A stretch of DNA of 49,047 nucleotides, from NCBI GenBank assembly GCA_002366725.1, contig DFBT01000076.1:1-49047 (forward strand). Direction: 5' to 3'. Each line of letters starts with the position of its first letter. Position 1 is the stretch's first letter. Below are positions 27,223 to 48,333 of this stretch, piece after piece. A model generated the notes under the pieces. The model was not told the DNA's origin and ran no database searches. It was given only the letters and a program-made list of their open reading frames with translations. The stretch is from a candidate division WOR-3 bacterium UBA3073. GTDB taxonomy: Bacteria; Hydrothermota; UBA3073. The position numbers and the translations under genes are program-made.

Positions 27223-28236
27223 TTAAAATTCAAATGAGAGAGACAACCTCTTTGCATTCTGTAGTCTGCCAAAATCCGCATAGGCAACGTCCAGTTTCAC
27301 TGCATAACTTCCAAAACGATGCCTTATGCCGCCTCCAAGAGTGAGTCCCCCTTCGCTATCCTTTAGAAAGAGAGACGAATATCCTGCACGCAGTGAAATC
27401 CTCTTATGGAAGATGTACTCGATACCCAGGTCTATGCTCTCTGTATTATCATTTGGGTGTTTTGCATCGATCGCCAATGTGAGAGTATTACTCTCGTTCC
27501 CTATAACATCCAAAGATATCCCCACCCTGAACATAAGAGGCAGTGACCACCTATCAGTGTGTAAGTCAGCAATTATTCTATCATTATCCCCGAAAAAGTC
27601 GGGGTTGAAATCGTAATATACCAGAATATCCCTTCCGCTGTACCCAATCTTCCCTCCAAAATTTAATATGCTCATACCTATCTTCATATCGTTGAAATCT
27701 GTCTCAAATAGCGTCCCCACATCCACCGCAAAGGTTGATGCACTCATATGCCATATCCTCTGATTTATATACTTCAGGTTAATTCCCACAGAGAATCTGT
27801 CTGTCAGACACCTTGCATAAGACAGTCCAAGAGCAAGGTCTCCTGCAGCAAACATCTCCCCAGTTCCTTCTGAATTTTCTACCGTTCTTACCTTCATCTC
27901 AGGCATTGATAGGGAAGTGACACCCACACCGATATTTCCCCAGCGTGGTGTACAGATGATCACGCCCGCGAAGTCAAAACGCAAACCTGCCAGCCAGCTT
28001 GTATGAATAACTACTGCCTCATTCTTGCTCAATCTCGATACACCGGCTGGATTCCAGTATATAGCAGTTGCATCGTCAGCCACAGCTACAAATGCACCGC
28101 CCATACCAACTGCCCTGGCACCCACGCCTATCTTCAAGAACTGCGCAGCGGTCGTCCCCACCTTAGAAACACCGAACTGTGAGTAGAGAAAGCCAGGCAC
28201 AAATAACAGCACGAGATATGCAAAAAATTTCTTCAT
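27223..28236 (-). CDS. PorV/PorQ-like (FadL-superfamily) outer-membrane beta-barrel, copy 1
   Basis: ATG at 28236 overlaps the stop of the upstream 1080-aa gene (ATGA). Signal MKKFFAYLVLLFVPGFLYSQ. Motif GTTAAQFLKIGVGARAVGMGGAFVAVADDATAIYWNPAG. C-terminus SLSFEF. The track's N-terminal extension to 28344 is an artefact. Confidence 0.7.
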   Translation of the reverse strand: MKKFFAYLVLLFVPGFLYSQFGVSKVGTTAAQFLKIGVGARAVGMGGAFVAVADDATAIYWNPAGVSRLSKNEAVVIHTSWLAGLRFDFAGVIICTPRWGNIGVGVTSLSMPEMKVRTVENSEGTGEMFAAGDLALGLSYARCLTDRFSVGINLKYINQRIWHMSASTFAVDVGTLFETDFNDMKIGMSILNFGGKIGYSGRDILVYYDFNPDFFGDNDRIIADLHTDRWSLPLMFRVGISLDVIGNESNTLTLAIDAKHPNDNTESIDLGIEYIFHKRISLRAGYSSLFLKDSEGGLTLGGGIRHRFGSYAVKLDVAYADFGRLQNAKRLSLSFEF

Positions 28237-31200
28237 TTTATAATGGCAAATCTGCCAATCTTTTCGCCTATGCCAGGCGCGTCTACGTGATATATGTATA
28301 TACCAGGCGCTATATCCATACCGTCTTTTGAGACAAGGCCCCATGGTTCTTCCCCATTGTCTATAAACGAGTCGTGTTCTATCACTTTTACAAGCTCACC
28401 CGATACAGTGTATATACGTATAGTAGCTCTTTGAGGAAGATGAATGAAGTATATCCTTCGTTCGCCCCTCCCCGATGCAAGGATCCTCCGTGGTTCCCAT
28501 TCTGCGGCTGCGCAGTAGGGATTAGGCACCACCGCAATTCTATCCAGGTCACTCCGGGCAAGGGCTTCTTCAATATAAGCTGAATTCGTCTTAATATCGA
28601 ATACATCTCCACTTCTGAAAGGCATATCAATTGCTATATATGCCCAATCACCTCTGATCGGATTTACTGTTGAGTCGACACCCGGTTCAAAGAATTTTAC
28701 CCTCCATGCCCTCTCCCAGTGATCGTCCACCCAAAGCCATATATCTATGTAATCTCCGGCATTTAGCAGGCTGTCTACCTCGCCCGGCGGTTCCCAGAGA
28801 TAGTATCTGACCTTTTGACTATCTATAACATCCCATACCGTGAAGTTCGTAGGATACTGTGGATTGGAGTAGAGGTAAGATGTATCTATACCGAAGGTGT
28901 CAATCCTTATCTCGTAACTTGTAGGAAAACCGGGGCGTCTATAAGGAGAACTGTACAACTGGTCAACATTTATGAGTAGATTACAATCTCCTTCTACCCA
29001 ACCTGTTAGGGAATCATTCCAGGCAACGGTGTCGTCCCTGACCTGCAATCTCATTCCATCGGATACTGGATTGAAGTCCTCTCCCTCTACATAAGTGGAA
29101 GTGAAAAGCAGTGAATCGCCACCAAGGTCATAGAATGAATATATCGTTGTATCCTGGTGAGTTGTGTCATCGAATACAATCCTGTAAGCGTTCTCCTTCA
29201 CCAGGAGTGGATCCATGACATCTATCCATATATCTCCTGTCCCATGCCCTTTTGTATGTTCTATATCTACCTGCGCATTCTTATATCCTGCTGCCGGTGA
29301 ACGCGGTGTAGCCACCACTGTATTTTTATCGAGTGTAACATTCCCCACAACATCCATCTTGATAACCTTTGTACATTCTGATGGGAGCATGCCGGCCTCT
29401 GCCCATCCTCTGTCATACGATACTACTGCGTAATAGTATGTCTGCCCATTTTTCACATCGTAATCGGCATATGAGTGCTTTAATCCAGTGTTATCACCCA
29501 TATAGTATTGAACACCGTTAACGTCTATCGGGAAAAATCCAGACACATCATTTTTAATATCGAACTGTGCAAGTGGGTCATATAGAACGGGGTTGCCCTG
29601 TCCGTCTGTGATGGTATAGCAGTCGTTGAATGCAGGGTCTGTGCTCCTGTATATTCTGTAACCCTCAAAGTCTCTCCATCCATATGCTCCAGGCTCACAA
29701 CCGATAGAATCGGCAAATACATCCTCTGAGTATTCCGCCGCATCGTCCCAGTAGAGGGTAACTTTACCATCTCCTGCAACTGCCCGTAGCTCAGGCTTGT
29801 CCGGAGGTCTTGCAAAGTTATAATTTGCATTATATATCTTTTGCACTACCTCTACATTTCTCCTTAAGTCCTCGAGGTCGTTTCCGAATACGAGAGCAAG
29901 TGAAAATCTCTCAGTCTTTCCAGGGGGTAATGGGAAAGGCCCGGAACCGTAGAGGAATGCAGTATTGCCAGGATACTGCTCTCCAATGTCAAAGTGATAG
30001 TATGCAATCCTTTCCCATATAACGTCATCGAATCGATATTCAACGCCATGTCCAATGTAGAAACGGTCAAAGGCTGTGAGGCCTATCTGGTCGGATTCGT
30101 CCTTGTCGGTCTCATCAAAGTGCGGTTCACCAGGTGATGGTATGCCGTCTCCTTCTCCCCGGTCACCGGTCCCGGGGACACCATCTGCACCAACATCATC
30201 TGTCTCCCGATTCCAGTCAGAGTCGTTGTCTATCCCGTCATCCCTTGCTTCATCTATTAAAAGATTATTTAGACCTCCTCCAGTAATCCAATCCTTATAT
30301 TTAAGACCGGTGTGTATATCCTCATTTTCATCTATAAGCCCATTAAGGTTATCATCCATACCATTCCAGTCAATCTCGACCAACACCTCGTCTGGCATTA
30401 TCCTATCTAAGATTCCACGGTGCTGTATAACAAGACCTGTATCAGGCATAGATACAACACTACGCTTATATGTATCGTAATCTATTAATACACACTGTTC
30501 TCCTGCTGAAAAACTTCCGGGAAGGGAGACACCAGCGTCAATTACAGGCCCAGGACAATCTCTACCGTCACCATCGTCGTCTATCCCGTTGTATGGATTA
30601 CCGGGACTTTCGAGAAACGCATAACCCGCATATCCTGTTTCCCAACCACCCTGTCCGGTACCATCTGGGTCCCAGGAATATGTTATATCCATCTCGGTGT
30701 CGTAGAAGGCATTGTCATCGTTTGAATCATCCGGTCCGCCAACACCACAGTCTACATACATACCAAATGCAACCTCGTCATAGTGTGTAGTTGATATATT
30801 AGTTATATCATAGTGCCAGAATATCAGGTCTTCTGCCAGAACATTGGACCACTGGAATCCCCTTACCTCGACCCTCATTCCAAGTCCACCCCTTGAGGAG
30901 TCATACATATCACAGTAGAACTTCTCACGGAATGCTGCTCCGTGATCACAATAGTCATCCATAACAAAGTAACTCTCCTGGTCTGCGTTCGTTCTCTTAC
31001 CAAAATATCCGTTCCAACTGCCAGGCCAACCAGGGTCGTCGGGCTCGTTCATTTTGTCAGGCCAGGAAGCTGGCCATGAATCAGGGTCATCACTCATCGC
31101 AATCTTGTCCTCATATGGGTTTGAATAACCAGAAATAGGTTGCCATCCATATTCAACACCTGTTATGGGGTCTTCCTCGTAGTGTTCCCGATAGCCTGCC

Positions 31201-31475
31201 TCAACTATATGTATAGTATCACCCTCCGAGAGTACCACCTCCGCTGCAACTATTGGTGTTATACCGTCCATATAAGAATGATCAGTTCCCCTTGGCCAGA
31301 CCCCTGATGGGTGTTTTCTCCACCAGGCGACCTCTCCAAAATTCCAGAAGAGGGTCTCCACAAGATTGCCGTTGTGAAGTCCCCGTTTTCTATATTTCCT
31401 GTCACCATGCTCTTCAACAGAGGGCACATCGAGCGCCATCAAAATACCTATTATGATAAGTATTAGCCTATTCAT
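28233..31475 (-). CDS. ~1080-aa secreted protein of unknown function with acidic Ca-loop clusters, an Fn3-like module and a divergent C-terminal sorting-like domain (paralog A)
   Basis: - I prefer the ATG at 31475 (MNRLILIIIGILMAL), with GGAG upstream; the track start at 31547 is TTG.
- Acidic clusters GIDDDGDGRD, DDNLNGLIDENED and DDGIDNDSDWNRETDDVGADGVPGTGDRGEGDGIPSPGEPHFDETDKDESDQ.
- Fn3-like PPDKPELRAVAGDGKVTLYWDD...FEGYRIYRS.
- C-terminus VVPNPY...IRIYTVSGELV...GIYIYHV...GRFAIIK. Confidence 0.8.
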   Translation of the reverse strand: MNRLILIIIGILMALDVPSVEEHGDRKYRKRGLHNGNLVETLFWNFGEVAWWRKHPSGVWPRGTDHSYMDGITPIVAAEVVLSEGDTIHIVEAGYREHYEEDPITGVEYGWQPISGYSNPYEDKIAMSDDPDSWPASWPDKMNEPDDPGWPGSWNGYFGKRTNADQESYFVMDDYCDHGAAFREKFYCDMYDSSRGGLGMRVEVRGFQWSNVLAEDLIFWHYDITNISTTHYDEVAFGMYVDCGVGGPDDSNDDNAFYDTEMDITYSWDPDGTGQGGWETGYAGYAFLESPGNPYNGIDDDGDGRDCPGPVIDAGVSLPGSFSAGEQCVLIDYDTYKRSVVSMPDTGLVIQHRGILDRIMPDEVLVEIDWNGMDDNLNGLIDENEDIHTGLKYKDWITGGGLNNLLIDEARDDGIDNDSDWNRETDDVGADGVPGTGDRGEGDGIPSPGEPHFDETDKDESDQIGLTAFDRFYIGHGVEYRFDDVIWERIAYYHFDIGEQYPGNTAFLYGSGPFPLPPGKTERFSLALVFGNDLEDLRRNVEVVQKIYNANYNFARPPDKPELRAVAGDGKVTLYWDDAAEYSEDVFADSIGCEPGAYGWRDFEGYRIYRSTDPAFNDCYTITDGQGNPVLYDPLAQFDIKNDVSGFFPIDVNGVQYYMGDNTGLKHSYADYDVKNGQTYYYAVVSYDRGWAEAGMLPSECTKVIKMDVVGNVTLDKNTVVATPRSPAAGYKNAQVDIEHTKGHGTGDIWIDVMDPLLVKENAYRIVFDDTTHQDTTIYSFYDLGGDSLLFTSTYVEGEDFNPVSDGMRLQVRDDTVAWNDSLTGWVEGDCNLLINVDQLYSSPYRRPGFPTSYEIRIDTFGIDTSYLYSNPQYPTNFTVWDVIDSQKVRYYLWEPPGEVDSLLNAGDYIDIWLWVDDHWERAWRVKFFEPGVDSTVNPIRGDWAYIAIDMPFRSGDVFDIKTNSAYIEEALARSDLDRIAVVPNPYCAAAEWEPRRILASGRGERRIYFIHLPQRATIRIYTVSGELVKVIEHDSFIDNGEEPWGLVSKDGMDIAPGIYIYHVDAPGIGEKIGRFAIIK

Positions 31476-31543
31476 AAAGAGGGCTCCAACATTTGTAGTG
31501 CCAAATATATTTGCATCCCGCCAAGACGGGATGCCTACATAAT

Positions 31544-34198
31544 TCAAAATCTACATGATAGACCTATCTCTACCTTCCTCGGTTCAGAATAGAACTCAGG
31601 TCTGTTCAGAAAATCCTCCAATGTATTTGGACCCTTAACCTCGCTTGTATAATGTGGAATAAGTGAATAGCTTGCCCTTCCTGTGTCGAGATAAACATCC
31701 TCTTCGTTCTTTCTATCGAAGAGATTGTTAACCAAAAGGTTTATTGAAAATATCCCATTAAACAGAGTAAAATCTCTGTGTGCCTTAAGGTCAAATGAAT
31801 AAGTTTCGGGCTTTCTCTCACTGTTCTCAAAGCCAAGGCGTATATTCTGGTATTCAGAGGTATATGGAAACCCACTACCATATCTTCCTATAATCGAGAT
31901 ACCTCCTATATCAGGTTTACCAATATTTAAGGTAAAATTAATAGTATGCGTCTGATCCCAATCTAAAGGCACAACCTGTATCTCACTTTCTCTTGGTGGC
32001 TCACTCTGCTGGTCATAAAATATCGCGTTTGGATCTGAGGCATTTCCTTCCGCTACCTGATAGGTATAGTCGAGGTAAGTAGTGATAAAACCAATAGGCC
32101 GGGTCTTGAGTGAAACAGTAACACCCCTGACATTCCCGTAATCACGATTTACATACCTTGCATATCTATCACCCATTATATAAAGCTCATATATGGCAGT
32201 TCCTACAAGGTTTCTTATATCCTTATAATATGCAGTTAAATCCACTCCAACTAAATCGCCAAACTGTTGCTGGATTCCATACTCATATATGGTCGTCTTC
32301 TGGGGTTCCAGGTCAGCATTGCCCATAAGTGACTTGAGTTCCCCTCCCATCACCTCAAACTCTGGGTTATGATAGAGATACTGAAAAGGAGGAATCTGGA
32401 AGAAATGACCATAGGAAAAGTGAAGAACACCCCTCTCTGTTATTGGGAATGCTATTCCAAGTCGAGGACTTATCTGATGTTTTACACTTGCCTCCCTGTA
32501 CCACACATCCCTCTGCCAGTAAGAGTTGTTCGGGTCCCTTGGGTCGAGTGGAACTATACCGTCGGGGTAAAAATAGTCGTACCTGAATCCTGCGTTTACT
32601 ATCAAATTATTAAACTCCATCTTGTCCTGGATGTAAAAAGCAGCCTCTATAGGGTCGTGTGTGTATCTATTATGTCTCGTTGAGGAGATAGGATAGGGTC
32701 TGGGCTTCCAATCAGTGGTCTCGTCCAGTTGCAACTCAAATTCTTCTAAAGAAAGGGCGTGTCTCCTTGCCTCCAGTCCGCATTTAACCTGATGAGTTCC
32801 AGTTATCTGGGAAGTGATATCAAAATTCCCTGATACGCTTTTTGAAACCCGGTAGTAGTGGTTCATATCACACCCACCTGTATAGAATGCATATGCATTT
32901 CGATTCAATCTTCTGGGATCAACATATCTTTTGTCGAGCGTATCCTCATACACATAGGACTTATAATCTTTTGCACTACTAGCTAACCTCACATTAAAGA
33001 AGGTTCTTGCACCGACAGCCTGCGTGAATGTGAGAAGGTGCATACAGGATTTCTCATACTCTGTAGGGGCTCCATCAGGATCATATTTGAAGAGATGCCA
33101 GTAGGTTCTTTTTTTAAGGTTACCCAACATAAATCCGTATCTGAGTTTTGAGTTGGGGAGGATTTGATATGAAAGGTTGCCGTAAAAAAATTTCTTTTCT
33201 TCTGGATTCATCGGGACGTAACTACTGTCACCCGTGGTCTCAACATACCACTCTGATGGGTCCCCTGACTCAAATTTTGAGGAGTCAGATGGATTGAATA
33301 TTCTCTTGCTATATAACCATCCTCCATTTTTATATAGCCTCGTAGATAAGAAAAAATTTATTCTTTCACCTATTGGTCCGCTTAGGGTTGCCTCTACATT
33401 ATGGTTGCTCAAAGGTTCAAAATGGTGAATATGCTGGAATGTCTCCTCGTGGGTTGAGATGTAATCTCCCGTCCATGTTGATATTTCACCAGAGGGGTTT
33501 CTCCCTCCCTCTTTTGTTACAATGTTAACTACACCCGACATAGCCTTACCGTACTCAGCATTGAATGTCCCACTCACTACCTTCATCTCCTGCACAATGC
33601 TGTTCTCTACCTCCATCATCATCTCTCCAGAGAATGGATCGGTGACAGATACGCCATCTATCATATATACAATCTCGTCAGACCTACCACCCCTGATGTG
33701 GATTTCACCACCACTTCCAACAGTCACTCCTGCCTGTAGTTTTAGAAGATCTTTAAAGCTACCAACGGGCATCTCTTTTATATCCTCGGAACCTAATGTG
33801 GCCTCCGATGAGGTGAGGTCCATTTGTATCAGGGATTTTTCTGCCACAACCGTGATGCCTTCGCCTTCGATAATGGTGGGTTTCAATTTGAAGTCGAGCC
33901 CTGTAGTGAGGTCTGACGACACTTTAACATCCATCACTTGCCTGGCCTCGTATCCTATCATAGATGCCGTGATGGAATACTCACCCGGAGGGACATTCAG
34001 AATGATATAGTTGCCATCAATATCTGTGGCAGCACCCAGCCTGGTGTTTTCTATCACCACATTTACTCCAGACAGCGGTTCGTGTGACTGAAGATCGGTA
34101 ATCCTACCCACTACCTTTCCTGTGACCCCCGCCGAGAGTGTGCTATATAAAGCTATTTGCAGTAGAAATACACCCTTTATGATGGATGAGCCACTCAT
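31544..34198 (-). CDS. TonB-dependent receptor with N-terminal carboxypeptidase-regulatory-like domain, copy 1
   Basis: 884 aa. GKVVGRITD...GVNVVIENTRLGAATDIDGNYIILNVPPGEYSITASMIGY (CarboxypepD_reg-like). TonB-box-like GITVVAEK. Plug IHIRGGRSDEIVYMIDGVSVTDP. Long barrel ending GLSCRF. Confidence 0.85.
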   Translation of the reverse strand: MSGSSIIKGVFLLQIALYSTLSAGVTGKVVGRITDLQSHEPLSGVNVVIENTRLGAATDIDGNYIILNVPPGEYSITASMIGYEARQVMDVKVSSDLTTGLDFKLKPTIIEGEGITVVAEKSLIQMDLTSSEATLGSEDIKEMPVGSFKDLLKLQAGVTVGSGGEIHIRGGRSDEIVYMIDGVSVTDPFSGEMMMEVENSIVQEMKVVSGTFNAEYGKAMSGVVNIVTKEGGRNPSGEISTWTGDYISTHEETFQHIHHFEPLSNHNVEATLSGPIGERINFFLSTRLYKNGGWLYSKRIFNPSDSSKFESGDPSEWYVETTGDSSYVPMNPEEKKFFYGNLSYQILPNSKLRYGFMLGNLKKRTYWHLFKYDPDGAPTEYEKSCMHLLTFTQAVGARTFFNVRLASSAKDYKSYVYEDTLDKRYVDPRRLNRNAYAFYTGGCDMNHYYRVSKSVSGNFDITSQITGTHQVKCGLEARRHALSLEEFELQLDETTDWKPRPYPISSTRHNRYTHDPIEAAFYIQDKMEFNNLIVNAGFRYDYFYPDGIVPLDPRDPNNSYWQRDVWYREASVKHQISPRLGIAFPITERGVLHFSYGHFFQIPPFQYLYHNPEFEVMGGELKSLMGNADLEPQKTTIYEYGIQQQFGDLVGVDLTAYYKDIRNLVGTAIYELYIMGDRYARYVNRDYGNVRGVTVSLKTRPIGFITTYLDYTYQVAEGNASDPNAIFYDQQSEPPRESEIQVVPLDWDQTHTINFTLNIGKPDIGGISIIGRYGSGFPYTSEYQNIRLGFENSERKPETYSFDLKAHRDFTLFNGIFSINLLVNNLFDRKNEEDVYLDTGRASYSLIPHYTSEVKGPNTLEDFLNRPEFYSEPRKVEIGLSCRF

Positions 34199-37151: not shown

Positions 37152-37165
37152 TCTTTCTCTCCTTG

Positions 37166-40975: not shown

Positions 40976-41140
40976 TTGACACCAAAAATACAGTAAAATA
41001 AAAATATCAAAATTCATTCATGGGTAGGTCATCCCGCTATCGGAGGGGTCTCATACAATCTTTCTCGAAGGGGAAAGACTTAAAATCTGTCCCCACAGAG
41101 GGGGTAAAAAAATGGAAGACTGGAACTTGTGCTTACAGAA

Positions 41141-42225: not shown

Positions 42226-45200
42226 TTATTTTATCACGGCGAACTTGCCAATTTTCTCGCCAATTCCAGGGGCGTCTATGTGATATATATAGAGTCCATA
42301 GGAAATATCCATACCGTCCTTGGATACCAAATTCCATGACTCTGCACCATCCTTCATTGTGCTCTCGTGTTCTATTTTCTTTACCAGATTGCCCCTCACA
42401 GTGTATATGCGAATAGTGCATTTTTGTGGCAGATGTATAAAATCTATCTTTCTTTCTCCTCTGCCAAATTGATAAACATTGGGGGACTCCCAGGAGGCTG
42501 CAACTACATAGGGATTCGGCACCACAGCTATCCTGTCCAGTTCTGCTTTGGCCTTCTCCTTGCTGCAAAACTCTGCTTTGACCACAAATTCGAATACATC
42601 ACCATCCAGCGTATCTCCTTCGGCATCCAACCACTCACCTCTGAAAGGCTTTGTTGTTCGGAGACAGTAAATATCTCCCGGTTGAGGTGGAATGGGGTCC
42701 TCAAGGAAGGTGGTATCAACAACAATGCTGTCATCACCAATATAGGTTGTATCATAAATAGCAGGAGGGCCTGACAGGCGGAGTTCCCATGTTGTTCTAT
42801 AATTAACCACTGAACTGGGATCTTCTACGAGAATAATGACTGCATCCCCCATTGTATACAGAGAGTCTCCATCCTTATCGTCAAAGAGGAATGGCCATTC
42901 CAGACTATCGCCCGTAACATTCCAGATTGAGAAGTTTGTTGGTATTGCCTTATACGACCCAAACAGGGCTATAGAGGTAGAGACGATAGTATCGGAGAAG
43001 ATGAGTTTCATATCAGCGGGATAAAGTGTATTCAGGTTAAAAATTGGATTGGTCTCGCTGGAGAACATTGGGTTAAATCCGACTTCGATTTCGTGGTTGT
43101 TCTGCTTGACAAGCCAGCCAGATAGGGAATCGACAAAGACCGCTGTAGTATCATTGTGGAAATAAACCACCAGTCCATCAAAAAGAGGACTCTCGTCATC
43201 AACGCCACTCACATTCATACCGGTCACCAGTGTCTCTGGTGGTGAAGAAGGGTCATCAGGTAAGGTATCTCCTATAATTGTATAACCAGGAGCCTTGTCA
43301 AGATGCAAAAATGATGTATCGCTGAAAATAACCTTATAATATGCACCATCTTTTACAGACTCTGGAGCGATAAATCCTACTTCGATACTACCTGTTCCTG
43401 GACCCCTGTGTATAATTTCCCCTTCCACAACAGGGGGTGAATAACCAGCAGCAGGGGCATTTGGCGTTACAACAGCAGTATTTACATCCGTCATAGTTAC
43501 ACCCCTTTCATCAATAAATAATGTGGAAGTGCATTCAGTTGGGGCAATACCAATAGGATAACCATCTTCATCGAATAAAACATTCCCAAGGGAATCACGA
43601 GCAATAAATCCCCGATCGTAGGATACAATGGCATAATAATAGGTCTGACCATTATTTACACTCGAATCTACAAATGTGTGTCGCAGTCCTGTATCATCTC
43701 CAAGATTAAAACCTGCTCCATAGACATCAATTAAATGGGGACCTTTTAGTCCATTTTTTAAATCAAATTGTGCGAGGGGTTTTCGAAAAGTTGGATTACC
43801 ATAAGCATCCGTTATTATTCTTGCTTCCAAAAAACTTGGTTCAGTTGAGCGGTAAATTCTATATCCCTCAAAATCATATTCCTGGAGATATCTATCATAT
43901 GAATACTCTGCCCTATCGTCCCAGGAGAGTGTGACCTTTCCATCCCCAGGGATTGCAGTAAGACGAGGCTTGTCTGGTGGTCTTGAAAAATTGTAGTTTG
44001 CATTGTATATTGCTTGAACAGTCTTTGTATTTCTTCTTAAATCGTCCAAATCTTCTCCAAATAGTAGCGCAATGGAAAATCTTTGTGTTTCTCCTGGATG
44101 CAGCGGAAATGTTCCTGATGCGAACCACATCGCAAGATTTACACCTATAAGTTGTTGCTCTTCTGTAGGGGGTACCAATTGGGATAGGAGTTGCCAGACC
44201 GCTTCTTCTTCACTTGGTTTATGCCCCACCTCATGTACCATAAAGATCTTGAATCCGGTTAAGCCAATCTGGTCTGATTCATCTTTATCGGTCTGGTCAA
44301 AATTCGGCTCTCCTAGAGTAGGTATACCATCACCCTCACCTTCATCAGGGCCAAAATAGCCCTCATCTGTAGGTCCGATACCATCTGCTCCAAGGTCGTC
44401 GTTCAGTGGCTCACCGGGGTCCCATACTCCATTCTCATTTCTATCAGTGAATGCATGCCAATCACCGTCCTCATCACCAGACCAGTGCCAACGTACAAAA
44501 GGTACTCCACTTGCTCGAGCTTCTTCATCCAATGCTCCATCCTCCCTGTAGTAACCACAAGAACCATATACCCACCCTCCGGGCCCACTCTCCCTCGTTT
44601 CATCGGTCAACCCGTCATTATCGTTATCTATACCATCCCAGGGATTCCCTGGACTCTCTAAGAAGGCAAATCCTGCTACTCCAGCCTTACCACCCCACTG
44701 ACTTTCGTTGTTGATAGCCCATGCATATGCAAGGTCTATATCTGTATCGTAGCTGCCGCAATCATCACTTCCACCTGGACTAGGCATGGACTGACCCACT
44801 CCCCAGTCTATATAAGACGCAAAGAGAACCTTCTCATAGTCATATGTGCCCTCATTGGTGATTGCAAAATGCCAGAAGATACAATCCTCTGCCAGGACAT
44901 GCGACCATTGAAATCCCCTCACGGCAACCGCCAATCCAAGACCTCGCCGGGTGGTATCGGTAGGATCCGGATAAAAATTCCATCTGGTATCGTAGTCATC
45001 GTCCACCACATAGTAGGTCTCCAAGTCTGCGTTTTTTACACCCTTACCAAAATAGCCATTCCAATATCCTGCCCACTCTGGCTTGTCTGGCCATCGGACT
45101 GGCCAGGATTCGGGGTCATCACTCATTGCCGGGGAATCCTGATAATAGTTGCAATAGCCCGGAAGAGGCCACCAGCCCAAAGGATATCCGTCCTCATCCC

Positions 45201-45531
45201 TATCCACATCCTCCCGATAGTTCACCTCTAAAGGGTGTATAGTATCGCCGTCCTCATCCACGCACTCTGCTTGGACAACAGTTGCTACCCCATCCACATA
45301 GAGATGCCCACTTCCTTTGGGCCATTCTCCAGAATATGGAGTAGCATATTTTGCTATCTCTCCATGATTAAAAAATATTGTTCTTACAAGGTTGCCATCC
45401 ATTATTCCACTTTTATCCCAAAACCTATCGCCTGTGTGAGGAGCAGGATCACGCGGTTGGGCATAGAGAGAGGTAGCCTGCATGAGGAGTGGAATTACCG
45501 AAATTAACAAGATTGTTTTTTTGTTCCTCAT
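42226..45531 (-). CDS. ~1100-aa secreted protein of unknown function with acidic Ca-loop clusters, Fn3-like module and divergent C-terminal sorting-like domain (paralog B)
   Basis: Signal MRNKKTILLISVIPLLMQATSLYAQP, with GGAGA SD. It is colinear with 28233-31475: GIDNDNDGLTDE, GEGDGIPTLGEPNFDQTDKDESDQIGLT, PPDKPRLTAIPGDGKVTLSWDD...FEGYRIYRS. C-terminus VVPNPY...IRIYTVRGNLV...GLYIYHI...GKFAVIK. Confidence 0.8.
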   Translation of the reverse strand: MRNKKTILLISVIPLLMQATSLYAQPRDPAPHTGDRFWDKSGIMDGNLVRTIFFNHGEIAKYATPYSGEWPKGSGHLYVDGVATVVQAECVDEDGDTIHPLEVNYREDVDRDEDGYPLGWWPLPGYCNYYQDSPAMSDDPESWPVRWPDKPEWAGYWNGYFGKGVKNADLETYYVVDDDYDTRWNFYPDPTDTTRRGLGLAVAVRGFQWSHVLAEDCIFWHFAITNEGTYDYEKVLFASYIDWGVGQSMPSPGGSDDCGSYDTDIDLAYAWAINNESQWGGKAGVAGFAFLESPGNPWDGIDNDNDGLTDETRESGPGGWVYGSCGYYREDGALDEEARASGVPFVRWHWSGDEDGDWHAFTDRNENGVWDPGEPLNDDLGADGIGPTDEGYFGPDEGEGDGIPTLGEPNFDQTDKDESDQIGLTGFKIFMVHEVGHKPSEEEAVWQLLSQLVPPTEEQQLIGVNLAMWFASGTFPLHPGETQRFSIALLFGEDLDDLRRNTKTVQAIYNANYNFSRPPDKPRLTAIPGDGKVTLSWDDRAEYSYDRYLQEYDFEGYRIYRSTEPSFLEARIITDAYGNPTFRKPLAQFDLKNGLKGPHLIDVYGAGFNLGDDTGLRHTFVDSSVNNGQTYYYAIVSYDRGFIARDSLGNVLFDEDGYPIGIAPTECTSTLFIDERGVTMTDVNTAVVTPNAPAAGYSPPVVEGEIIHRGPGTGSIEVGFIAPESVKDGAYYKVIFSDTSFLHLDKAPGYTIIGDTLPDDPSSPPETLVTGMNVSGVDDESPLFDGLVVYFHNDTTAVFVDSLSGWLVKQNNHEIEVGFNPMFSSETNPIFNLNTLYPADMKLIFSDTIVSTSIALFGSYKAIPTNFSIWNVTGDSLEWPFLFDDKDGDSLYTMGDAVIILVEDPSSVVNYRTTWELRLSGPPAIYDTTYIGDDSIVVDTTFLEDPIPPQPGDIYCLRTTKPFRGEWLDAEGDTLDGDVFEFVVKAEFCSKEKAKAELDRIAVVPNPYVVAASWESPNVYQFGRGERKIDFIHLPQKCTIRIYTVRGNLVKKIEHESTMKDGAESWNLVSKDGMDISYGLYIYHIDAPGIGEKIGKFAVIK

Positions 45532-45569: not shown

Positions 45570-48287
45570 TTAAAGATCTACAGAAAATCCCAGGATTACA
45601 TGTCTCGGTGCGCAGTAAAAATCAGGTCTTATAAGATATTCTTCTAATGTGTTGATACCACGTACTACGCCGGGACTTGAAATTAGTGTATAACCAGCCC
45701 TGCCCGTGTCTGTATAGACATTCACCTCGTTCATTATATCAAACAGGTTATATACCTTAAGAAATAGGGAGAAATTCGATCCTATTAGTTTAAGATTGTA
45801 GTACGCTCTTAAATCAACATTATACTGAGGGGGTTTCCTTTCGCTATTTTCACGGGCGATGCGAATTCCTTCATGGGATGGTGTGTAGGGAAGTCCGGTC
45901 CCATATCTTCCTATAAGGCTAACTCCCCAAAACTGTGAATAGCCTATAGTTACAGCGCCGTTAAGGGTATGCATCTGATCCCAATCTAAAGGCACCAAGA
46001 ATTTTTCAGGTTCACGGTTTGCCAGGACATCCCAGAATACGGCATTGGGGTCTGATGCATTTCCTTTGGCAATTTGATAGGTATAGTCAAGCGAGGCGTA
46101 CAAGTATTGAGAATATCTACCCTCCAATGCAACAGTTATACCCCGCACATTACCATAGTCCCTGTTAATATATTGTGCATACTTACTTCCTATATAGGTT
46201 TCGTAAATCCTAATTCCCAAAAGATTCCTGATGTTCTTGAAGAAACCAGTCACATCAAGAGATATATTATCGCTCAATTGCTGCTGCAGGCCTATTTCAT
46301 ATATAACTGTTTTTTGGGGTTCCAGATCAGCATTCCCCATCCTGCTTGTAAGTCCAGCAGCATATACTTCGAATTCAGGATCAGTATATATATATTCAAA
46401 TGGAGGAATCTGGAAAAAGTGACCATACGAACCATGTAAAACCCCCCTATCGGTTATGGGATATGCTATTCCAATTCGAGGACTTATCTGGATCCTTGGC
46501 TCTACATCTTCAAACCATGGTTCACCTGTTACTCTTATAGGATTTCCCGGGTCATATGGATTAAGTGTATCTGGGTGTAAAGCATCTTTAGGATTGGGGT
46601 CACGGGGGTCAGTGGGAATTTTCCAATAGGGGTCGAAATAATCAAATCTAACACCGATATTGGCAATCATATTTTTAACCTCAATTTTATCCTGAATATA
46701 GGCGGCGACTTCAAATGGGTAGTTCGTGTACTTATTATGATTGGTGTAATTGATGGGAGGGATATAGGGTTCGAATGGGTGAATCTCCCTTCCTACCTCA
46801 TCCTTCTTGGGCACAATTTCAAACTCGTGAAGGAATAATTTATGTTTCCTCAGCTCTACACCCAGTTTTATCTGATGAGTATTGGTTACCTGGCTTGTGA
46901 TATCAAACTTTCCTATATATGATGTGGTATTTCTGCAAAAATACCGCATCTGGGTACCTCCAGTGCGGAATGCATAGTTACTTGCGTCTTGTAATCGTTC
47001 TGGATCAACATATCTTTTATCAAGAGAATCCTTATAAATGTATTGTCTGTAATCGTGAAAAGAATTTGCAAATTTAAGCTCAAAGAAGGTTTTTGAATTT
47101 ATGACATGATTCCAGTTGAATATATTTGAATAACCCCTATCGTATCGATTATAGTCACCGTCAGGGTTGTATTTAAAGGTATGGTCGTATGCGCGAAAAT
47201 CTCGGCTTTTCCACATCAGGTTGTAACTGAATCTGTCCCCGGGAGAAAGTCGGTAGGTAAATTTCCCATAAAGAGAATTCTTTAGAGTGGGGGCCATAGG
47301 CACCATTGAACTATCACCAGTTGCTCCTATGTACCACTCATCTGGATTGTCTTTTGAGAAATCACAGGAGTCAGAGGCGTTAAAAATTCTCTTACCAAAT
47401 AAGTATCCCTCGTTGTAATATCTCCTTGCTGTAGCATAAAAGGAAAGCTTCTTGCCAAAGATAGGGAAAGGACCACCAAGGGTGGTCTCAATATTGTAGG
47501 TGCTAAATGGATTTATGTGATCTATGTTCATATAGGTTTCAGTATGATTGCTGACATAATCCCCTGTATAAGTAGTGATGCGACCTGACAATTTATTGCC
47601 TCCCTCCCTTGTAACAATATTAACAACTCCCGACATCGCCTGTCCATATTCAGCATTAAAGGTCCCACTTATTACCTGTAATTCCTGGATGACACTGTTC
47701 TCAACATCTACTGCTGCCTCATGAGAGAAGGGATCGGTAATAGAGATGCCGTCAAGCATATACACCACTTCAGAACTCCTACCTCCACGAATGTGTCCCT
47801 CTACTACACCGGCCTGTAGATTAACCAAGTCTTGGAATCCCTCTACGGGCAATGCGTCTATCCTTTCGGCATCAACTACTGCACGGGTAGAAGTTAGGTC
47901 CATTTGAATGAGTTCTCTTTCAGCAACGACAGTGATACCTTCTGCTTCTATAACCGTCGGGTTGGGAGCGAAATCCATGGTGGTGGTAAAATCGACTGCA
48001 ACCTTTATATTTGTTATCTTTACCTCCTGATACCCCATCATTTTCGCAGTCACGGCGTATGTTCCTGGAGGAACATTTAATATCACATAGAAGCCATCAA
48101 GGTCGGAGGCATCACCCAGGGTGGTTTCTTCTACGATGATATTGGCAAAGGGCAGTGCTTCACCGGTCTGGGCATCGGTGACCCTACCGGCTAATTTCCC
48201 CGATGTGCCGGCCCATAAACAGGTGATGCCAGACAGAAGGCATACAATTAAAGAGAAAAACCTGATAAACCTACTTTTACTCTTCAC
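45570..48287 (-). CDS. TonB-dependent receptor with N-terminal carboxypeptidase-regulatory-like domain, copy 2
   Basis: I prefer the GTG at 48287 (VKSKSRFIRFFSLIVCLLSG), preceded by AAGGGGG. The track start at 48332 lies inside a hairpin. GKLAGRVTDAQTGEALPFANIIVEETTLGDASDLDGFYVILNVPPGTYAVTAKMMGY. TonB-box-like GITVVAER. Plug HIRGGRSSEVVYMLDGISITDP. Confidence 0.85.
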   Translation of the reverse strand: MKSKSRFIRFFSLIVCLLSGITCLWAGTSGKLAGRVTDAQTGEALPFANIIVEETTLGDASDLDGFYVILNVPPGTYAVTAKMMGYQEVKITNIKVAVDFTTTMDFAPNPTVIEAEGITVVAERELIQMDLTSTRAVVDAERIDALPVEGFQDLVNLQAGVVEGHIRGGRSSEVVYMLDGISITDPFSHEAAVDVENSVIQELQVISGTFNAEYGQAMSGVVNIVTREGGNKLSGRITTYTGDYVSNHTETYMNIDHINPFSTYNIETTLGGPFPIFGKKLSFYATARRYYNEGYLFGKRIFNASDSCDFSKDNPDEWYIGATGDSSMVPMAPTLKNSLYGKFTYRLSPGDRFSYNLMWKSRDFRAYDHTFKYNPDGDYNRYDRGYSNIFNWNHVINSKTFFELKFANSFHDYRQYIYKDSLDKRYVDPERLQDASNYAFRTGGTQMRYFCRNTTSYIGKFDITSQVTNTHQIKLGVELRKHKLFLHEFEIVPKKDEVGREIHPFEPYIPPINYTNHNKYTNYPFEVAAYIQDKIEVKNMIANIGVRFDYFDPYWKIPTDPRDPNPKDALHPDTLNPYDPGNPIRVTGEPWFEDVEPRIQISPRIGIAYPITDRGVLHGSYGHFFQIPPFEYIYTDPEFEVYAAGLTSRMGNADLEPQKTVIYEIGLQQQLSDNISLDVTGFFKNIRNLLGIRIYETYIGSKYAQYINRDYGNVRGITVALEGRYSQYLYASLDYTYQIAKGNASDPNAVFWDVLANREPEKFLVPLDWDQMHTLNGAVTIGYSQFWGVSLIGRYGTGLPYTPSHEGIRIARENSERKPPQYNVDLRAYYNLKLIGSNFSLFLKVYNLFDIMNEVNVYTDTGRAGYTLISSPGVVRGINTLEEYLIRPDFYCAPRHVILGFSVDL

Positions 48288-48302
48288 TTTTACCCCCTTG
48301 CT

Positions 48303-48333
48303 ATTGCGGGGAGGGGTAACCCCTCCCCGCAAT
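48303..48333 (-). other. 14-bp GC-rich perfect hairpin between the CBM-like gene and TBDR copy 2
   Basis: ATTGCGGGGAGGGG taa CCCCTCCCCGCAAT. On the reverse strand it lies 11 nt after the stop at 48345 and 15 nt before the TBDR GTG at 48287. No U-tract follows. Confidence 0.6.

What the first reader, a model, noticed from the sequence alone, without database searches (positions are those of the whole stretch)
27223..48332. Duplicated triad: TonB-dependent receptor / ~1100-aa unknown protein / PorV-like barrel, a SusD-less, T9SS-linked outer-membrane module
Two paralogous, colinear gene sets are present.
- Set 1: TBDR 31544-34198, large protein 28233-31475, PorV-like barrel 27223-28236.
- Set 2: TBDR 45570-48287, large protein 42226-45531, PorV-like barrel 41189-42211.

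Each set is immediately preceded by a gene for a secreted carbohydrate-binding-like protein with a T9SS-type CTD (34229-36052, and 48345 to the window edge).

The members align along their full length by eye. Examples are GEGDGIPSPGEPHFDETDKDESDQIGLT vs GEGDGIPTLGEPNFDQTDKDESDQIGLT, and TGEMFAAGDLALGLSYARCLTDRFS vs TGEMFSVGSMALGLSYARNLTDRFS. The DNA is clearly diverged, so this is old paralogy rather than an assembly duplication.

In Bacteroidota PULs a SusC-type TBDR is paired with a SusD lipoprotein. Here there is no SusD-like gene. The slot after the TBDR is filled by a giant protein of unknown function plus its own FadL/PorV-type barrel. I do not know of a characterised system with this architecture.
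Basis: partly seen in the sequence, partly recalled or inferred. Interest (0 to 1): 0.85.

Follow-up and report, generated by a model that had tools for sequence, protein, structure and literature searches.

The report
T9SS-anchored partner for sugar-uptake transporters
The window holds two old copies of a three-gene outer-membrane set: a TonB-dependent transporter, a ~1,100-residue unannotated secreted protein with its own kind of type IX secretion tail, and a PorV/PorQ-type barrel. The set is conserved in order across many bacterial phyla inside sugar-utilisation loci, and it probably does the job that SusC/SusD does in Bacteroides, but nobody has characterised it.

Summary
**Observation: confirmed.** Two colinear minus-strand triads exist at the stated coordinates. 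The paralogs share 51% (TBDR), 41% (large protein, "BIG") and 58% (PorV-like) identity.

**What the parts are**
- The barrels are PorV/PorQ-family members, but not PorV, PorQ or PorV2 equivalogs.
- The TBDRs have CarboxypepD_reg, Plug and barrel domains, but are not SusC-family.
- BIG has no Pfam, NCBIfam or PDB sequence match. It belongs to a large family (1,315 50%-identity clusters at E ≤ 1e-30).
- BIG is not a lipoprotein. It ends in a discrete, unusually conserved variant of the T9SS type A C-terminal domain (CTD).

**Synteny**
- TBDR→BIG→PorV-like is kept in essentially all 80 loci seeded from BIG, and in 5 of 5 loci seeded from the barrel. The taxa include WOR-3/Stahlbacteria, Calditrichota, Ignavibacteria, Marinimicrobia, KSB1, Gemmatimonadota and Rhodothermales.
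- The usual context is a LacI regulator, a T9SS CBM4/9 protein, T9SS CAZymes and an ABC importer.
- Paralog subfamilies track substrate. BIG1 orthologs sit with GH94 and GH144 (β-1,2-glucan). BIG2-like loci are rich in GH130.

**Best explanation (inferred)**
- BIG is exported by the T9SS and held on its cognate PorV/Q barrel through its retained CTD.
- There it works with the TBDR as the glycan-capture and import unit of a SusD-less PUL.

The same gene order, by annotation, appears as "hypothetical" genes in two published Rhodothermus marinus PUL descriptions. I found no functional study.

The parts
48345..49047 (-). Upstream cassette member of set 2: a T9SS type A CTD protein, cut by the window edge. 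Its homologs elsewhere carry 1-3 CBM_4_9-containing repeats.
   Evidence: - The frame is open to the window edge.
- Por_Secre_tail/TIGR04183 hits.
- Body plus CTD are homologous to the gene just upstream of the TBDR in 56 of 59 loci.
- CBM_4_9 in 17 of 41 homologs and a CTD in 39 of 41.
48304..48332 (-). 13-bp perfect hairpin (TTGCGGGGAGGGG-TTAC-CCCCTCCCCGCAA) between the upstream CTD gene and TBDR2, with no T-run after it.
   Evidence: Read directly from the sequence. Its function was not tested.
45570..48287 (-). TBDR2: TonB-dependent transporter with signal peptide, CarboxypepD_reg N-domain, Plug and β-barrel.
   Evidence: - Pfam PF13715/PF13620, PF07715, PF00593, all above cut-off.
- SusC/RagA TIGR04056 scores only 29 bits against a cut-off of 368.
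- 51% identical to TBDR1.
42226..45531 (-). BIG2: 1101-aa secreted protein of an unannotated family. It has an SPI-type signal peptide (…LYA/QP), a conserved N-terminal ~750 aa, a variable β-sandwich region and a variant T9SS CTD.
   Evidence: - No Pfam, NCBIfam or PDB hit.
- More than 4000 homologs.
- First AF2 model.
42229..42540 (-). Variant T9SS CTD of BIG2 (last 104 aa): PNPY motif, a ~20-aa insertion (AASWE…GRGER), then a 7-strand Ig-like sandwich ending in KFAVIK.
   Evidence: - hhalign against the window's ordinary type A CTDs: probability 91.6%, E 8e-7.
- A dedicated HMM separates this class cleanly from ordinary CTDs.
- It is the most conserved part of BIG.
41189..42211 (-). PorV/PorQ-family outer-membrane barrel of set 2 (340 aa).
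   Evidence: - NF033709: 224.7 bits (cut-off 90).
- Below the cut-offs of PorV, PorQ and PorV2.
- PF19572 hit.
- The only PDB sequence hit is PorV, 6h3i.
37436..41017 (-). 1193-aa T9SS cargo: DNRLRE domain, tandem β domains, a large unannotated domain and a type A CTD. Probably the secreted enzyme or binding protein of the set-2 locus.
   Evidence: - NF033679 DNRLRE and TIGR04183 hits.
- No PDB sequence homolog.
36156..37199 (-). LacI-family regulator, with a perfect σ70-consensus promoter-like site at 37228-37256.
   Evidence: - Pfam LacI plus Peripla_BP domains.
- Promoter scan.
- A LacI gene lies two or three genes upstream of the TBDR in 37 of the related loci (23 loci two genes upstream, 14 three genes upstream).
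34229..36061 (-). 610-aa T9SS type A CTD protein immediately upstream of TBDR1. Its body is unannotated; I read it as internally duplicated from the translation, but ran no repeat test.
   Evidence: - CTD hits only.
- Similar to the upstream proteins of other loci only through the CTD.
31544..34198 (-). TBDR1: TonB-dependent transporter with the same architecture as TBDR2.
   Evidence: - Pfam hits.
- TIGR04056 scores 70 bits against a cut-off of 368.
31513..31534 (-). 9-bp GC-rich hairpin with an A/T-rich tail, in the 68-nt TBDR1-BIG1 spacer.
   Evidence: Best terminator-like site in the scan. Its function was not tested.
28233..31475 (-). BIG1: 1080-aa paralog of BIG2. The variant CTD is encoded at 28236-28547.
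   Evidence: - BLASTP against BIG2.
- AF2 model with pLDDT 86.2 and pTM 0.78.
- Foldseek gives no global match.
- Orthologs in 3 of 3 checked genomes sit next to GH94 and GH144 genes.
27223..28236 (-). PorV/PorQ-family barrel of set 1 (337 aa). Its start codon overlaps the BIG1 stop by 4 nt.
   Evidence: NF033709: 230.6 bits. 58% identical to the set-2 barrel.
24158..27154 (-). ABC sugar importer: a solute-binding protein (25847-27154) and two permeases (24981-25850, 24158-24979).
   Evidence: - Pfam SBP_bac_1 and BPD_transp_1.
- The same SBP-permease-permease trio follows the barrel in most related loci.
17591..24156 (-). CAZymes of the set-1 locus: a GH94 phosphorylase (21790-24156), a GH144-type β-1,2-glucanase with CBM30, fn3 and a T9SS CTD (19017-21734), and a second PF10091/DUF3131 protein (17591-18913).
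   Evidence: - Pfam hits.
- Best PDB matches are the GH94 region of cyclic β-1,2-glucan synthase and cellobiose phosphorylase, and BDI_3064 and endo-β-1,2-glucanase.

Best explanation
Each triad is the outer-membrane uptake unit of a SusD-less polysaccharide-utilisation locus.

**Shown**
- The TBDR is a plug-containing TonB-dependent transporter.
- The barrel is a PorV/PorQ-family protein.
- BIG is a Sec-exported, non-lipoprotein, all-β multidomain protein. It ends in a discrete and very conserved variant of the T9SS type A C-terminal domain.
- The three genes are inherited and duplicated as one unit across many phyla.
- The unit sits between a LacI regulator plus T9SS-secreted CBM or CAZyme genes and an ABC sugar importer plus cytoplasmic phosphorylases.
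- Paralog subfamilies track the CAZyme set of the locus.

**Inferred mechanism**
1. BIG crosses the outer membrane through the T9SS.
2. Its CTD is not exchanged for a lipid anchor. It stays bound to the cognate PorV/Q-type barrel, which holds BIG on the cell surface. This would mirror PorU on PorV, PorZ on PorQ, and type B cargo on PorP-like carriers.
3. The conserved N-terminal ~750 residues of BIG associate with the co-evolving TBDR.
4. The variable β-sandwich region contributes substrate-specific contacts.
5. Oligosaccharides are released at the surface by the T9SS-secreted enzymes (for set 1, a GH144 β-1,2-glucanase). The BIG/TBDR pair captures them and imports them using TonB energy.
6. 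The ABC system then takes them across the inner membrane, and they are phosphorolysed (GH94).

In short, this is a T9SS-assembled functional analog of SusC/SusD.
For: **Domains**
- TBDR: CarboxypepD_reg, Plug and barrel.
- Barrel: NF033709 at 230 and 225 bits against a cut-off of 90.

**BIG is exported but not lipidated**
- SPI-type signal peptides.
- A lipobox-like motif in only 2 of 118 family members.

**CTD**
- hhalign against the window's ordinary type A CTDs gives 91.6% probability, E 8e-7.
- The AF2 model shows a 7-strand C-terminal sandwich.
- A CTD-variant HMM is bimodal: 90 ORFs score 120 bits or more, none score 40-120, and ordinary CTDs score below 40.
- In 59 loci, mean pairwise identity is 66% for the BIG CTD, 55% for whole BIG and 45% for the ordinary CTD of the neighbouring gene.
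- In L082 and L085, a second protein lacking the BIG N-domain carries the same CTD and lies between BIG and the barrel.

**Unit inheritance**
- Synteny in 80 of 80 loci where the contig allows, apart from L075.
- 5 of 5 loci seeded from the barrel.
- Mantel r: TBDR-BIG 0.96, BIG-barrel 0.88, TBDR-barrel 0.89. The neighbouring gene's CTD gives 0.34-0.40.
- Tandem triads also occur in L084.

**PUL context**
-.
- Subfamily tracks substrate. BIG1 orthologs sit with GH94 plus GH144 in 3 of 3 loci. BIG2-like loci show GH130 in 18 of 95 sampled flanking genes.

**Precedent for anchoring on PorV/Q and cognate carriers**
- PMC12365241, PMC9143113 and PMC12618676.
- Foldseek's best hits include PorZ (5m11, E 1.3e-7) and PorU (6za2).
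Against: - No physical interaction was tested.
- BIG does not pass the type A CTD models (TIGR04183/PF18962) at E ≤ 0.01.
- The Foldseek matches have very low TM-scores (about 0.1). They may reflect only generic Ig/FN3 and CTD sandwiches.
- The most conserved part of BIG is shared between loci for different glycans, so a direct glycan-binding role for it is unproven.
- A separate CBM4/9 protein already exists in the cassette and could be the binding protein.
- The mirror-tree correlation is partly shared phylogeny, and its control was a short CTD.
- No T9SS core genes lie in the window.
- No expression or proteomic data were found.
Confidence: 0.52

Rival explanations
1. BIG is a secreted or surface-attached enzyme (a new CAZyme or other hydrolase). 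The PorV-like barrel is merely its dedicated T9SS shuttle. The TBDR imports the products without forming a complex with BIG.
For: - The N-terminal core has many invariant Asp, Glu, Trp, Arg and His residues.
- Foldseek gives high-probability local matches to the β-supersandwich regions of glycoside hydrolases and phosphorylases: 9ju0, 8ic6, 4zle, 8rf9.
- BIG sits among CAZymes.
Against: - The conserved core is shared by loci for unrelated glycans, namely GH144/GH94 versus GH130. That is unusual for a substrate-specific enzyme.
- The matched parts of those enzymes are non-catalytic sandwich domains, and TM-scores are below 0.2.
- Many invariant acidic residues lie in DxDxDG-type loops that look like Ca2+ sites (inference).
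- The TBDR-BIG distance correlation of 0.96 and fixed adjacency point to a physical partnership.
Confidence: 0.17
2. BIG is a surface adhesin or cell-to-substrate attachment protein, like SprB/RemA with their SprF-type partners. It is held by its own barrel. Its linkage to the TBDR is only co-regulation within the locus.
For: - It is a large all-β, FN3/Ig-rich T9SS cargo with Ca-binding-like loops.
- There is precedent for cargo genes lying next to genes for their carrier barrels.
Against: - The order TBDR-BIG-barrel is invariant and tightly spaced or overlapping.
- The TBDR and BIG trees are almost identical (r 0.96).
- Adhesins are usually repetitive and fast-evolving, whereas the BIG N-terminal region is about 65-75% conserved across phyla.
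Confidence: 0.15
3. The PorV-like barrel is a FadL-type diffusion channel for a small or hydrophobic substrate. BIG is not a T9SS cargo, and its C-terminal domain is just an Ig-like module.
For: - Weak sub-threshold Toluene_X hits: 19 and 27 bits against a cut-off of 29.7.
- BIG fails the type A CTD HMMs.
Against: - The match to the PorV/PorQ family model is strong, and the only PDB sequence hit is PorV.
- Profile similarity of the BIG tail to genuine CTDs, including the PNP[YF] motif and the terminal K/R.
- The same tail occurs on a second protein placed next to the barrel.
- The loci are full of other T9SS cargo.
Confidence: 0.06
4. The triad is an outer-membrane biogenesis or secretion device (for example a TBDR-like exporter with a chaperone platform) rather than an importer.
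For: - SurA/PPIase-like genes often accompany it.
- FadL-like BamG is an attachment platform in the Bacteroidota BAM complex.
Against: - Copies are multiple and substrate-specific per genome, and are embedded in catabolic loci with importers and regulators.
- The Plug plus barrel architecture is that of an importer.
- BamG model scores are negligible (15-16 bits against a cut-off of 250).
Confidence: 0.04

Closest known systems
SusC/SusD (RagA/RagB) pairs of Bacteroidota polysaccharide utilisation loci
   Same: - A TonB-dependent transporter with an N-terminal carboxypeptidase-regulatory-like domain.
- It is always followed by a co-evolving gene for a surface protein.
- The pair is present in many substrate-specific paralogous copies inside regulated CAZyme loci.
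   Different: - The TBDR is far below the SusC/RagA model cut-off (70 and 29 bits against 368).
- The partner is twice the size of SusD (my recollection of SusD's size, not measured here), all-β rather than the TPR/α fold reported for SusD family members (abstract of PMC2954216), and not a lipoprotein.
- It carries a T9SS CTD, and a third gene (a PorV/Q barrel) is obligatory.
- Inner-membrane uptake is by an ABC system under LacI control.
T9SS attachment-complex pairs PorU-PorV and PorZ-PorQ (Porphyromonas gingivalis)
   Same: - Surface proteins are anchored by binding a PorV/PorQ-family barrel (PMC12365241). That PorU and PorZ are themselves T9SS-exported and keep their CTDs is from my own knowledge, not checked here.
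- The barrels here belong to that family.
- PorZ and PorU are among the best Foldseek hits.
   Different: - The barrels fail the PorV, PorQ and PorV2 equivalog cut-offs.
- They are encoded next to their presumed cargo, in several copies per genome, inside catabolic loci.
- The cargo is unrelated to the PorU sortase or to PorZ in its N-terminal domains.
Type B CTD cargo with cognate PorP/SprF-like carriers (F. johnsoniae, P. gingivalis)
   Same: A cargo gene lies next to the gene for its own outer-membrane β-barrel carrier or anchor. A dedicated CTD class is matched to that carrier (PMC9143113, PMC12618676).
   Different: - The CTD here derives from type A, not type B. There was no TIGR04131-type hit.
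- The barrel is PorV/Q-family rather than PorP/SprF-family.
- The pair is welded to a TBDR.
Non-SusD surface-lipoprotein lids of TonB-dependent transporters (for example BtuB-BtuG, and the 'many families of lids' in Bacteroides)
   Same: The concept of a TBDT working with an adjacent, family-specific surface-exposed partner (listed).
   Different: Those partners are lipoproteins exported by the lipoprotein route. Here the partner has no lipobox and appears to use the T9SS plus a barrel anchor.
Rhodothermus marinus alginate PUL (tonB-hypA-hypB-hypC) and xylan locus (Rmar_1070-1073)
   Same: [quoted passage not shown] It follows LacI and CBM4-containing T9SS enzymes.
   Different: - The authors left the genes as hypothetical.

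Membership tests
PorV/PorQ family (NCBIfam NF033709; Pfam PF19572) | Full-length match to the family HMM above the curated cut-off | tested here: met
   230.6 and 224.7 bits against a cut-off of 90, covering model positions 1-326. PF19572 scores 49.9 and 43.2 bits against a cut-off of 27.
T9SS PorV proper (NF033710), PorQ proper (NF033711), PorV2 (NF052325) | Score above the equivalog cut-off | tested here: not met
   - PorV: 94.8 and 74.3 bits against 250.
- PorQ: 100.3 and 91.7 bits against 220.
- PorV2: 92.0 and 92.7 bits against 325.
FadL/OMPP1/TodX hydrophobic-substrate channels (PF03349) | Match above the Pfam gathering score | tested here: not met
   19.0 and 27.2 bits against a cut-off of 29.7. 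Only a ~30-50-residue N-terminal stretch matches.
TonB-dependent transporter | Plug domain plus TonB-dependent β-barrel | tested here: met
   PF07715 scores 42.2 and 27.4 bits (cut-off 23.9). PF00593 scores 81.5 and 99.3 bits (cut-off 27).
TonB-dependent transporter | TonB box upstream of the plug | tested here: inconclusive
   Both paralogs have a conserved EGITVVAE motif before the plug. It was identified by eye only; there was no model or experiment.
SusC/RagA family (TIGR04056) | Full-length match above cut-off | tested here: not met
   70.2 and 29.4 bits against a cut-off of 368. Only the N-terminal ~200 residues match.
Canonical Bacteroidota PUL | An adjacent SusC-like and SusD-like gene pair | tested here: not met
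   No SusD/RagB domain was found in any ORF of 150 aa or more in the window. None was found in the called genes of loci L081-L088.
T9SS type A CTD (TIGR04183 / PF18962) | C-terminal ~75-aa domain matching the family HMM | tested here: inconclusive
   - BIG1 and BIG2 give no hit at E ≤ 0.01.
- Profile-profile comparison to the window's genuine CTDs gives 91.6% probability, E 8e-7.
- The PNPY motif and terminal Lys are present.
- A partial homolog is annotated as type A by NCBI.
T9SS type A CTD | T9SS-dependent export, with CTD cleavage or attachment by PorU | not testable with these tools
   This needs secretion assays or proteomics in a cultured carrier such as R. marinus, C. abyssi or M. roseus.
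T9SS type B CTD / PorP-SprF carrier pairs | A type B CTD on the cargo and a PorP/SprF-family barrel next to it | tested here: not met
   No type B CTD family or PorP/SprF family appeared in the NCBIfam or Pfam scans of BIG or the barrels.
BamG (Bacteroidota BAM-associated FadL-like barrel, NF053685) | Match above the equivalog cut-off | tested here: not met
   15.5 and 16.0 bits against a cut-off of 250.

The most novel reading that the evidence does not exclude
**Core claim.** The triad is a lipoprotein-independent counterpart of the SusCD machine.
- A dedicated third class of T9SS C-terminal domain is permanently docked in its own PorV/PorQ-type barrel.
- This tethers a ~1,100-residue protein, for which no similar solved structure was found, over or beside a TonB-dependent transporter.
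- The resulting three-protein outer-membrane complex would be the standard glycan-import unit of PUL-like loci in a range of FCB-group and neighbouring lineages: the source records name Ignavibacteria, Calditrichota, Marinimicrobia, KSB1, WOR-3, Gemmatimonadota and Rhodothermales.

**Consequences if true.**
- It would add a new CTD/carrier pair to T9SS biology.
- It would add a new architecture to TBDT-mediated nutrient uptake.
- It would give a marker for finding PULs outside Bacteroidia.
Probability: 0.4. Interest if true: 0.85.

Novelty: new variant of a known kind. Interest (0 to 1): 0.76.

Why it matters
**PUL prediction outside Bacteroidia.** It currently fails because it keys on SusC/SusD pairs. 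A TBDR-BIG-PorV/Q signature would mark glycan-uptake loci in abundant but poorly understood degraders: Ignavibacteria, Calditrichota, Marinimicrobia, KSB1, WOR-3 and Gemmatimonadota. Paralog subfamilies appear to report the substrate class.

**T9SS biology.** It suggests that PorV/PorQ-type barrels are used as cargo-specific permanent anchors far beyond the single attachment complex. It also suggests that a distinct CTD class specifies this fate.

**Transporter biology.** It offers a TBDT partner built on a completely different export and anchoring route from surface lipoproteins.

**Annotation and testability.** The BIG family is large (over 1,300 50%-identity clusters) and has no domain annotation at all. 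The question is directly testable in cultured organisms: Caldithrix abyssi, where the triad was confirmed here; Melioribacter roseus, where a MAG assigned to that species carries it; and Rhodothermus marinus, which has published loci with the same annotated gene order and defined substrates (alginate, xylan).

Tried and rejected
**Searches that found nothing for BIG**
- Pfam, NCBIfam, PDB phmmer and a PDB profile search.

**Structure**
- The first AF2 model used 20 sequences and was poor (pLDDT 67). Its Foldseek hits were generic FN3 chains.
- The second model used 118 sequences and is good (pLDDT 86). Foldseek still gave only local, low-TM matches, so the fold of the N-terminal core remains unassigned.
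- I could not split the model into domains for separate searches.

**Reverse synteny test**
- A census by scanning metagenome contigs with a PorV-like alignment failed with a tool error, and that consumed the cap.
- I replaced it with five look-ups seeded from PorV-like homologs.

**Other negative or inconclusive checks**
- Multimer prediction (a fused chain) is not possible with the permitted inputs. The adjacent genes are in different frames, so no window reference can span both.
- Promoter-like sites are not more frequent than in shuffles (38 against 46 ± 7). No operon boundaries are claimed from them.
- Rfam and tRNA scans of the window were empty.
- Literature searches (10 of 10 used) found no functional study. 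They found only the two R. marinus locus descriptions.
- I could not retrieve the R. marinus proteins to test homology to BIG.

**Rejected readings**
- The FadL-channel reading was considered and rejected on model scores.
- The reading of the TBDR as a trans-envelope signalling receptor has no support: no signalling-type N-terminal extension was detected, and the N-domain is CarboxypepD_reg.

Full report
**1. Observation**

All genes of the region lie on the minus strand.
- Set 1: TBDR 31544-34198, BIG1 28233-31475, PorV-like barrel 27223-28236.
- Set 2: TBDR 45570-48287, BIG2 42226-45531, PorV-like barrel 41189-42211.

Pairwise BLASTP shows full-length paralogy:
- TBDR pair: 51% identity.
- BIG pair: 41% identity with many indels.
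- Barrel pair: 58% identity.

The genes are tightly packed: BIG1 and barrel 1 overlap by 4 nt, and BIG2 and barrel 2 are 14 nt apart. The protein-level divergence rules out an assembly duplicate.

**2. The three families**

*TBDR.*
- Both have a signal peptide, a CarboxypepD_reg N-domain, a Plug and a TonB-dependent barrel, all above the Pfam cut-offs.
- They match the SusC/RagA model only over the first ~200 residues and fall far below its cut-off.

*Barrel.*
- Both are clear PorV/PorQ-family members: NF033709 scores 231 and 225 bits against a cut-off of 90.
- They fail the equivalog models for PorV, PorQ, PorV2 and BamG.
- They fall below the FadL/Toluene_X gathering score.
- Their only PDB sequence relative is PorV.

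*BIG.*
- No Pfam or NCBIfam family matches.
- No PDB relative was found by sequence or by profile.
- More than 4,000 homologs were found for each paralog. [quoted passage not shown]
- A full profile scan of 1.84 billion cluster representatives found 1,315 clusters at E ≤ 1e-30 and 4,678 at E ≤ 1e-10.

**3. Anatomy of BIG**

- It has an SPI-type signal peptide, often …A/Q. Only 2 of 118 members have a lipobox-like motif, so it is not a lipoprotein.
- Conservation along a 118-sequence alignment, in BIG1 numbering:
  - a conserved core at ~31-300 and ~421-750;
  - a lineage-specific insertion at ~301-420;
  - a variable region at ~750-960;
  - a very conserved C-terminal ~110 residues.
- With the deep alignment, AF2 gives a confident model (pLDDT 86.2, pTM 0.78). 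It is almost all β, with an FN3-like module ('FEGYRIYRS…GQTYYYAVVSYD'), further β-sandwiches and a 7-strand C-terminal sandwich.
- Foldseek against the PDB gives no global match; TM-scores are about 0.2 or less. The best local hits are PorZ (5m11, E 1.3e-7), PorU (6za2), FN3/Ig chains, and the β-supersandwich regions of dextran dextrinase and of GH94-type enzymes. These are leads, not assignments.

**4. The C-terminal domain is a discrete CTD variant**

- The last 104 residues begin with VVPNPY, carry a ~20-residue insertion (AASWE…GRGER) and end in …GKFAVIK.
- Profile-profile comparison with the window's four ordinary type A CTDs gives 91.6% probability, E 8e-7.
- An HMM of the variant was run over all ORFs of 85 loci plus the window. 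The result is bimodal: 90 ORFs score 120 bits or more, none score between 40 and 120, and ordinary CTDs score below 40.
- In the same 59 loci, mean pairwise identity is 66% for the BIG tail, 55% for whole BIG and 45% for the ordinary CTD of the neighbouring gene. Such constraint fits a permanent protein-protein contact better than a transient export signal.
- In two loci (L082 from a Gemmatimonadota genome, and L085), a second protein lacks the BIG N-terminal core but carries FN3, a variable region and the same tail. It sits between BIG and the barrel. The tail, not the N-domain, is therefore what goes with the barrel.

**5. Synteny**

The best 80 come from MAGs labelled Stahlbacteria, Calditrichia, Ignavibacteria/Melioribacteraceae, Neomarinimicrobiota, Rhodothermales and others.
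- In every one where the contig reaches far enough, a TBDR lies directly upstream and a PorV-like barrel downstream on the same strand.
  - L075 is the one exception, an orphan BIG among CAZymes.
  - Eight loci have one extra gene between BIG and the barrel.
  - L045 has two tandem BIG genes.
- The reverse test seeded from barrel homologs gave the same order in 5 of 5 loci. These include the cultured Caldithrix abyssi and a 5-Mb Gemmatimonadota chromosome. BLAST confirmed that the unannotated middle gene is BIG.
- L084 carries two triads in tandem, like the window.
- Distance matrices over 59 loci correlate at r = 0.96 (TBDR-BIG), 0.88 (BIG-barrel) and 0.89 (TBDR-barrel). The neighbouring gene's CTD gives 0.34-0.40.
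- The three genes are therefore inherited and duplicated as one unit.

**6. Context**

*In the window.*
- Set 1 is followed by an ABC sugar-binding protein and two permeases, then a GH94 phosphorylase, a GH144-type endo-β-1,2-glucanase with CBM30, fn3 and a T9SS CTD, and a second PF10091 protein.
- A LacI regulator and two further T9SS cargo genes lie between the sets.

*Across the related loci.* The recurrent order is:
1. LacI.
2. A T9SS type A protein with CBM_4_9 repeats. It is homologous to the window gene at 48345 to the edge in 56 of 59 loci; CBM_4_9 was detected in 17 of 41 and a CTD in 39 of 41.
3. TBDR, then BIG, then the barrel.
4. Often a SurA/PPIase-like protein, or a PKD + Laminin_G_3 T9SS protein.
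5. A solute-binding protein and two permeases.

*Subfamily follows substrate.*
- Three BIG1 orthologs from independent assemblies all sit in LacI - CTD protein - TBDR - BIG - barrel - GH94 - GH144(CBM30) loci.
- The BIG2-like loci are enriched in GH130, GH2, GH5/GH9 and MGH1-like genes.

This is how SusC/SusD pairs behave in Bacteroidota PULs.

**7. Mechanism**

*Shown.* Domain identities, the export signal, the absence of a lipobox, the CTD variant, unit inheritance, the PUL-like context and the link between subfamily and substrate.

*Inferred.*
- BIG is a T9SS cargo whose tail remains bound to the cognate PorV/Q-type barrel, which anchors it at the surface.
- The precedents are PorU on PorV and PorZ on PorQ, and type B cargo on cognate carriers (PMC12365241; PMC9143113 and PMC12618676).
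- BIG's conserved core docks on the co-evolving TBDR, and the variable sandwiches give substrate specificity.
- Oligosaccharides made by the T9SS-secreted enzymes are captured and imported by the TBDR. The ABC system then takes them up, and they are phosphorolysed.
- I put about 0.5 on this composite. The glycan-import role of the cassette is more likely (~0.8). The CTD-barrel pairing sits at ~0.65. The lid or capture role of BIG is the least certain.

*Rivals.*
- BIG as a new enzyme (0.17).
- BIG as an adhesin only co-regulated with the TBDR (0.15).
- The barrel as a FadL-like channel, with BIG not a T9SS cargo (0.06).
- A biogenesis or export device (0.04).

**8. Comparison with what is known**

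- It works like SusC/SusD but is not a member. The TBDR fails the SusC model, there is no SusD, the partner is not a lipoprotein, and a third gene is obligatory.
- It resembles the PorU-PorV and PorZ-PorQ pairs, and the type B CTD/PorP-like pairs, in the logic of anchoring. It differs from them in CTD class, in barrel subfamily, and in being fused to a nutrient transporter.
- Literature searches (10 of 10 used) found no functional description.
- Two Rhodothermus marinus papers show the same annotated order with the genes left as 'hypothetical':
  - the alginate PUL: TonB-dependent receptor - T9SS type A sorting domain protein - PorV/PorQ family protein - hypothetical (PMC9530828);
  - the xylan locus: LacI - GH43/CBM6 - CBM4-CBM4-GH10 - TBDR Rmar_1070 - hypotheticals Rmar_1071-1073, next to a canonical SusC/SusD pair (PMC6987092).
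- I could not test whether those proteins are BIG homologs. A Rhodothermales MAG (L080) does carry a full triad.

**9. Verdict**

- The module is an uncharacterised, widespread variant of known kinds of system (TBDT-based glycan import; T9SS cargo anchored on a carrier barrel). It also contains a large protein family without any annotation.
- Novelty: new variant of a known kind.
- Interest: 0.76.

Noticed in passing
L082:7002-8957 and L085:5519-7960: These are second, shorter BIG-family proteins (651 and 813 aa). They lack the N-terminal core but keep FN3, a variable region (Laminin_G_3 in L085) and the same variant CTD. Each is inserted between BIG and the PorV-like barrel, in GH130-containing loci.
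   Followed up: partly
Related loci, e.g. L007:14177-16084, L002:7092-8918, L063:7950-9491, L034:13234-14619: A SurA-like or PPIase (Rotamase) protein is often encoded right after the barrel, or between BIG and the barrel. It appeared in 14 of 95 sampled flanking genes. It may be a dedicated periplasmic chaperone for the cassette. Neither window triad has one.
   Followed up: partly
Related loci, e.g. L021:13255-16422, L006:14344-17484, L025:12692-15832, L001:9514-12660, L075:4174-7311: A recurrent ~1,050-aa T9SS type A cargo with PKD/Big_9 and Laminin_G_3 (ConA-like lectin) domains accompanies many triads.
   Followed up: no
window 48304-48332 and 31513-31534: Two strong hairpins lie in intergenic spacers of the cassettes. 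One is a 13-bp perfect stem between the upstream CTD gene and TBDR2. The other is a 9-bp GC-rich stem in the TBDR1-BIG1 spacer. They may be processing, stability or attenuation elements that set the stoichiometry.
   Followed up: no
window 37228-37256 (minus strand): A perfect σ70 consensus (TTGACA-17-TATAAT, 12 of 12) lies just upstream of the LacI gene. It is the only perfect match in the 20 kb scanned.
   Followed up: no
window 37436-41017: A 1193-aa T9SS cargo with an N-terminal DNRLRE domain and two repeated β modules. It also has a ~600-aa C-terminal region with no Pfam family and no PDB sequence homolog. It is probably the enzyme of the set-2 locus and is itself uncharacterised.
   Followed up: partly
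window 10486-12654: A 2.1-kb stretch has no ORF longer than 123 aa. It lies downstream of the OmpH(Skp)-LpxD genes, where fabZ/lpxA-type genes might be expected. Rfam and tRNA scans found nothing. It does encode a small lipoprotein-like peptide with repeated 'GHW' motifs.
   Followed up: partly
L084 (two triads: 1832-9200 and 12854 to the locus end) and L045 (tandem BIG genes at 6702-9947 and 9869-13192): Tandem duplication of the whole triad, or of BIG alone, recurs in other genomes. The window's duplication is therefore a general habit of the family.
   Followed up: partly
L075:9881-13135: An orphan BIG gene in a Melioribacter-like MAG. It is flanked by GH2, GH94-superfamily-like and Laminin_G_3/CTD genes, with no adjacent TBDR or PorV-like barrel. 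It is the only clear exception to the synteny.
   Followed up: partly
L087:21305-23102: A TonB-ExbD-ExbD-ExbB gene set lies a few kb from a BIG1-type triad. This fits TonB energisation of the cassette's transporter.
   Followed up: no
Literature: PMC9530828 Fig. 2 and PMC6987092 Table 1: Published Rhodothermus marinus alginate and xylan loci list the same order by annotation (TBDR, a CTD-bearing hypothetical, a PorV/PorQ-family or hypothetical protein). In the xylan locus this sits side by side with a canonical SusC/SusD pair. The two architectures can therefore co-exist in one organism.
   Followed up: partly
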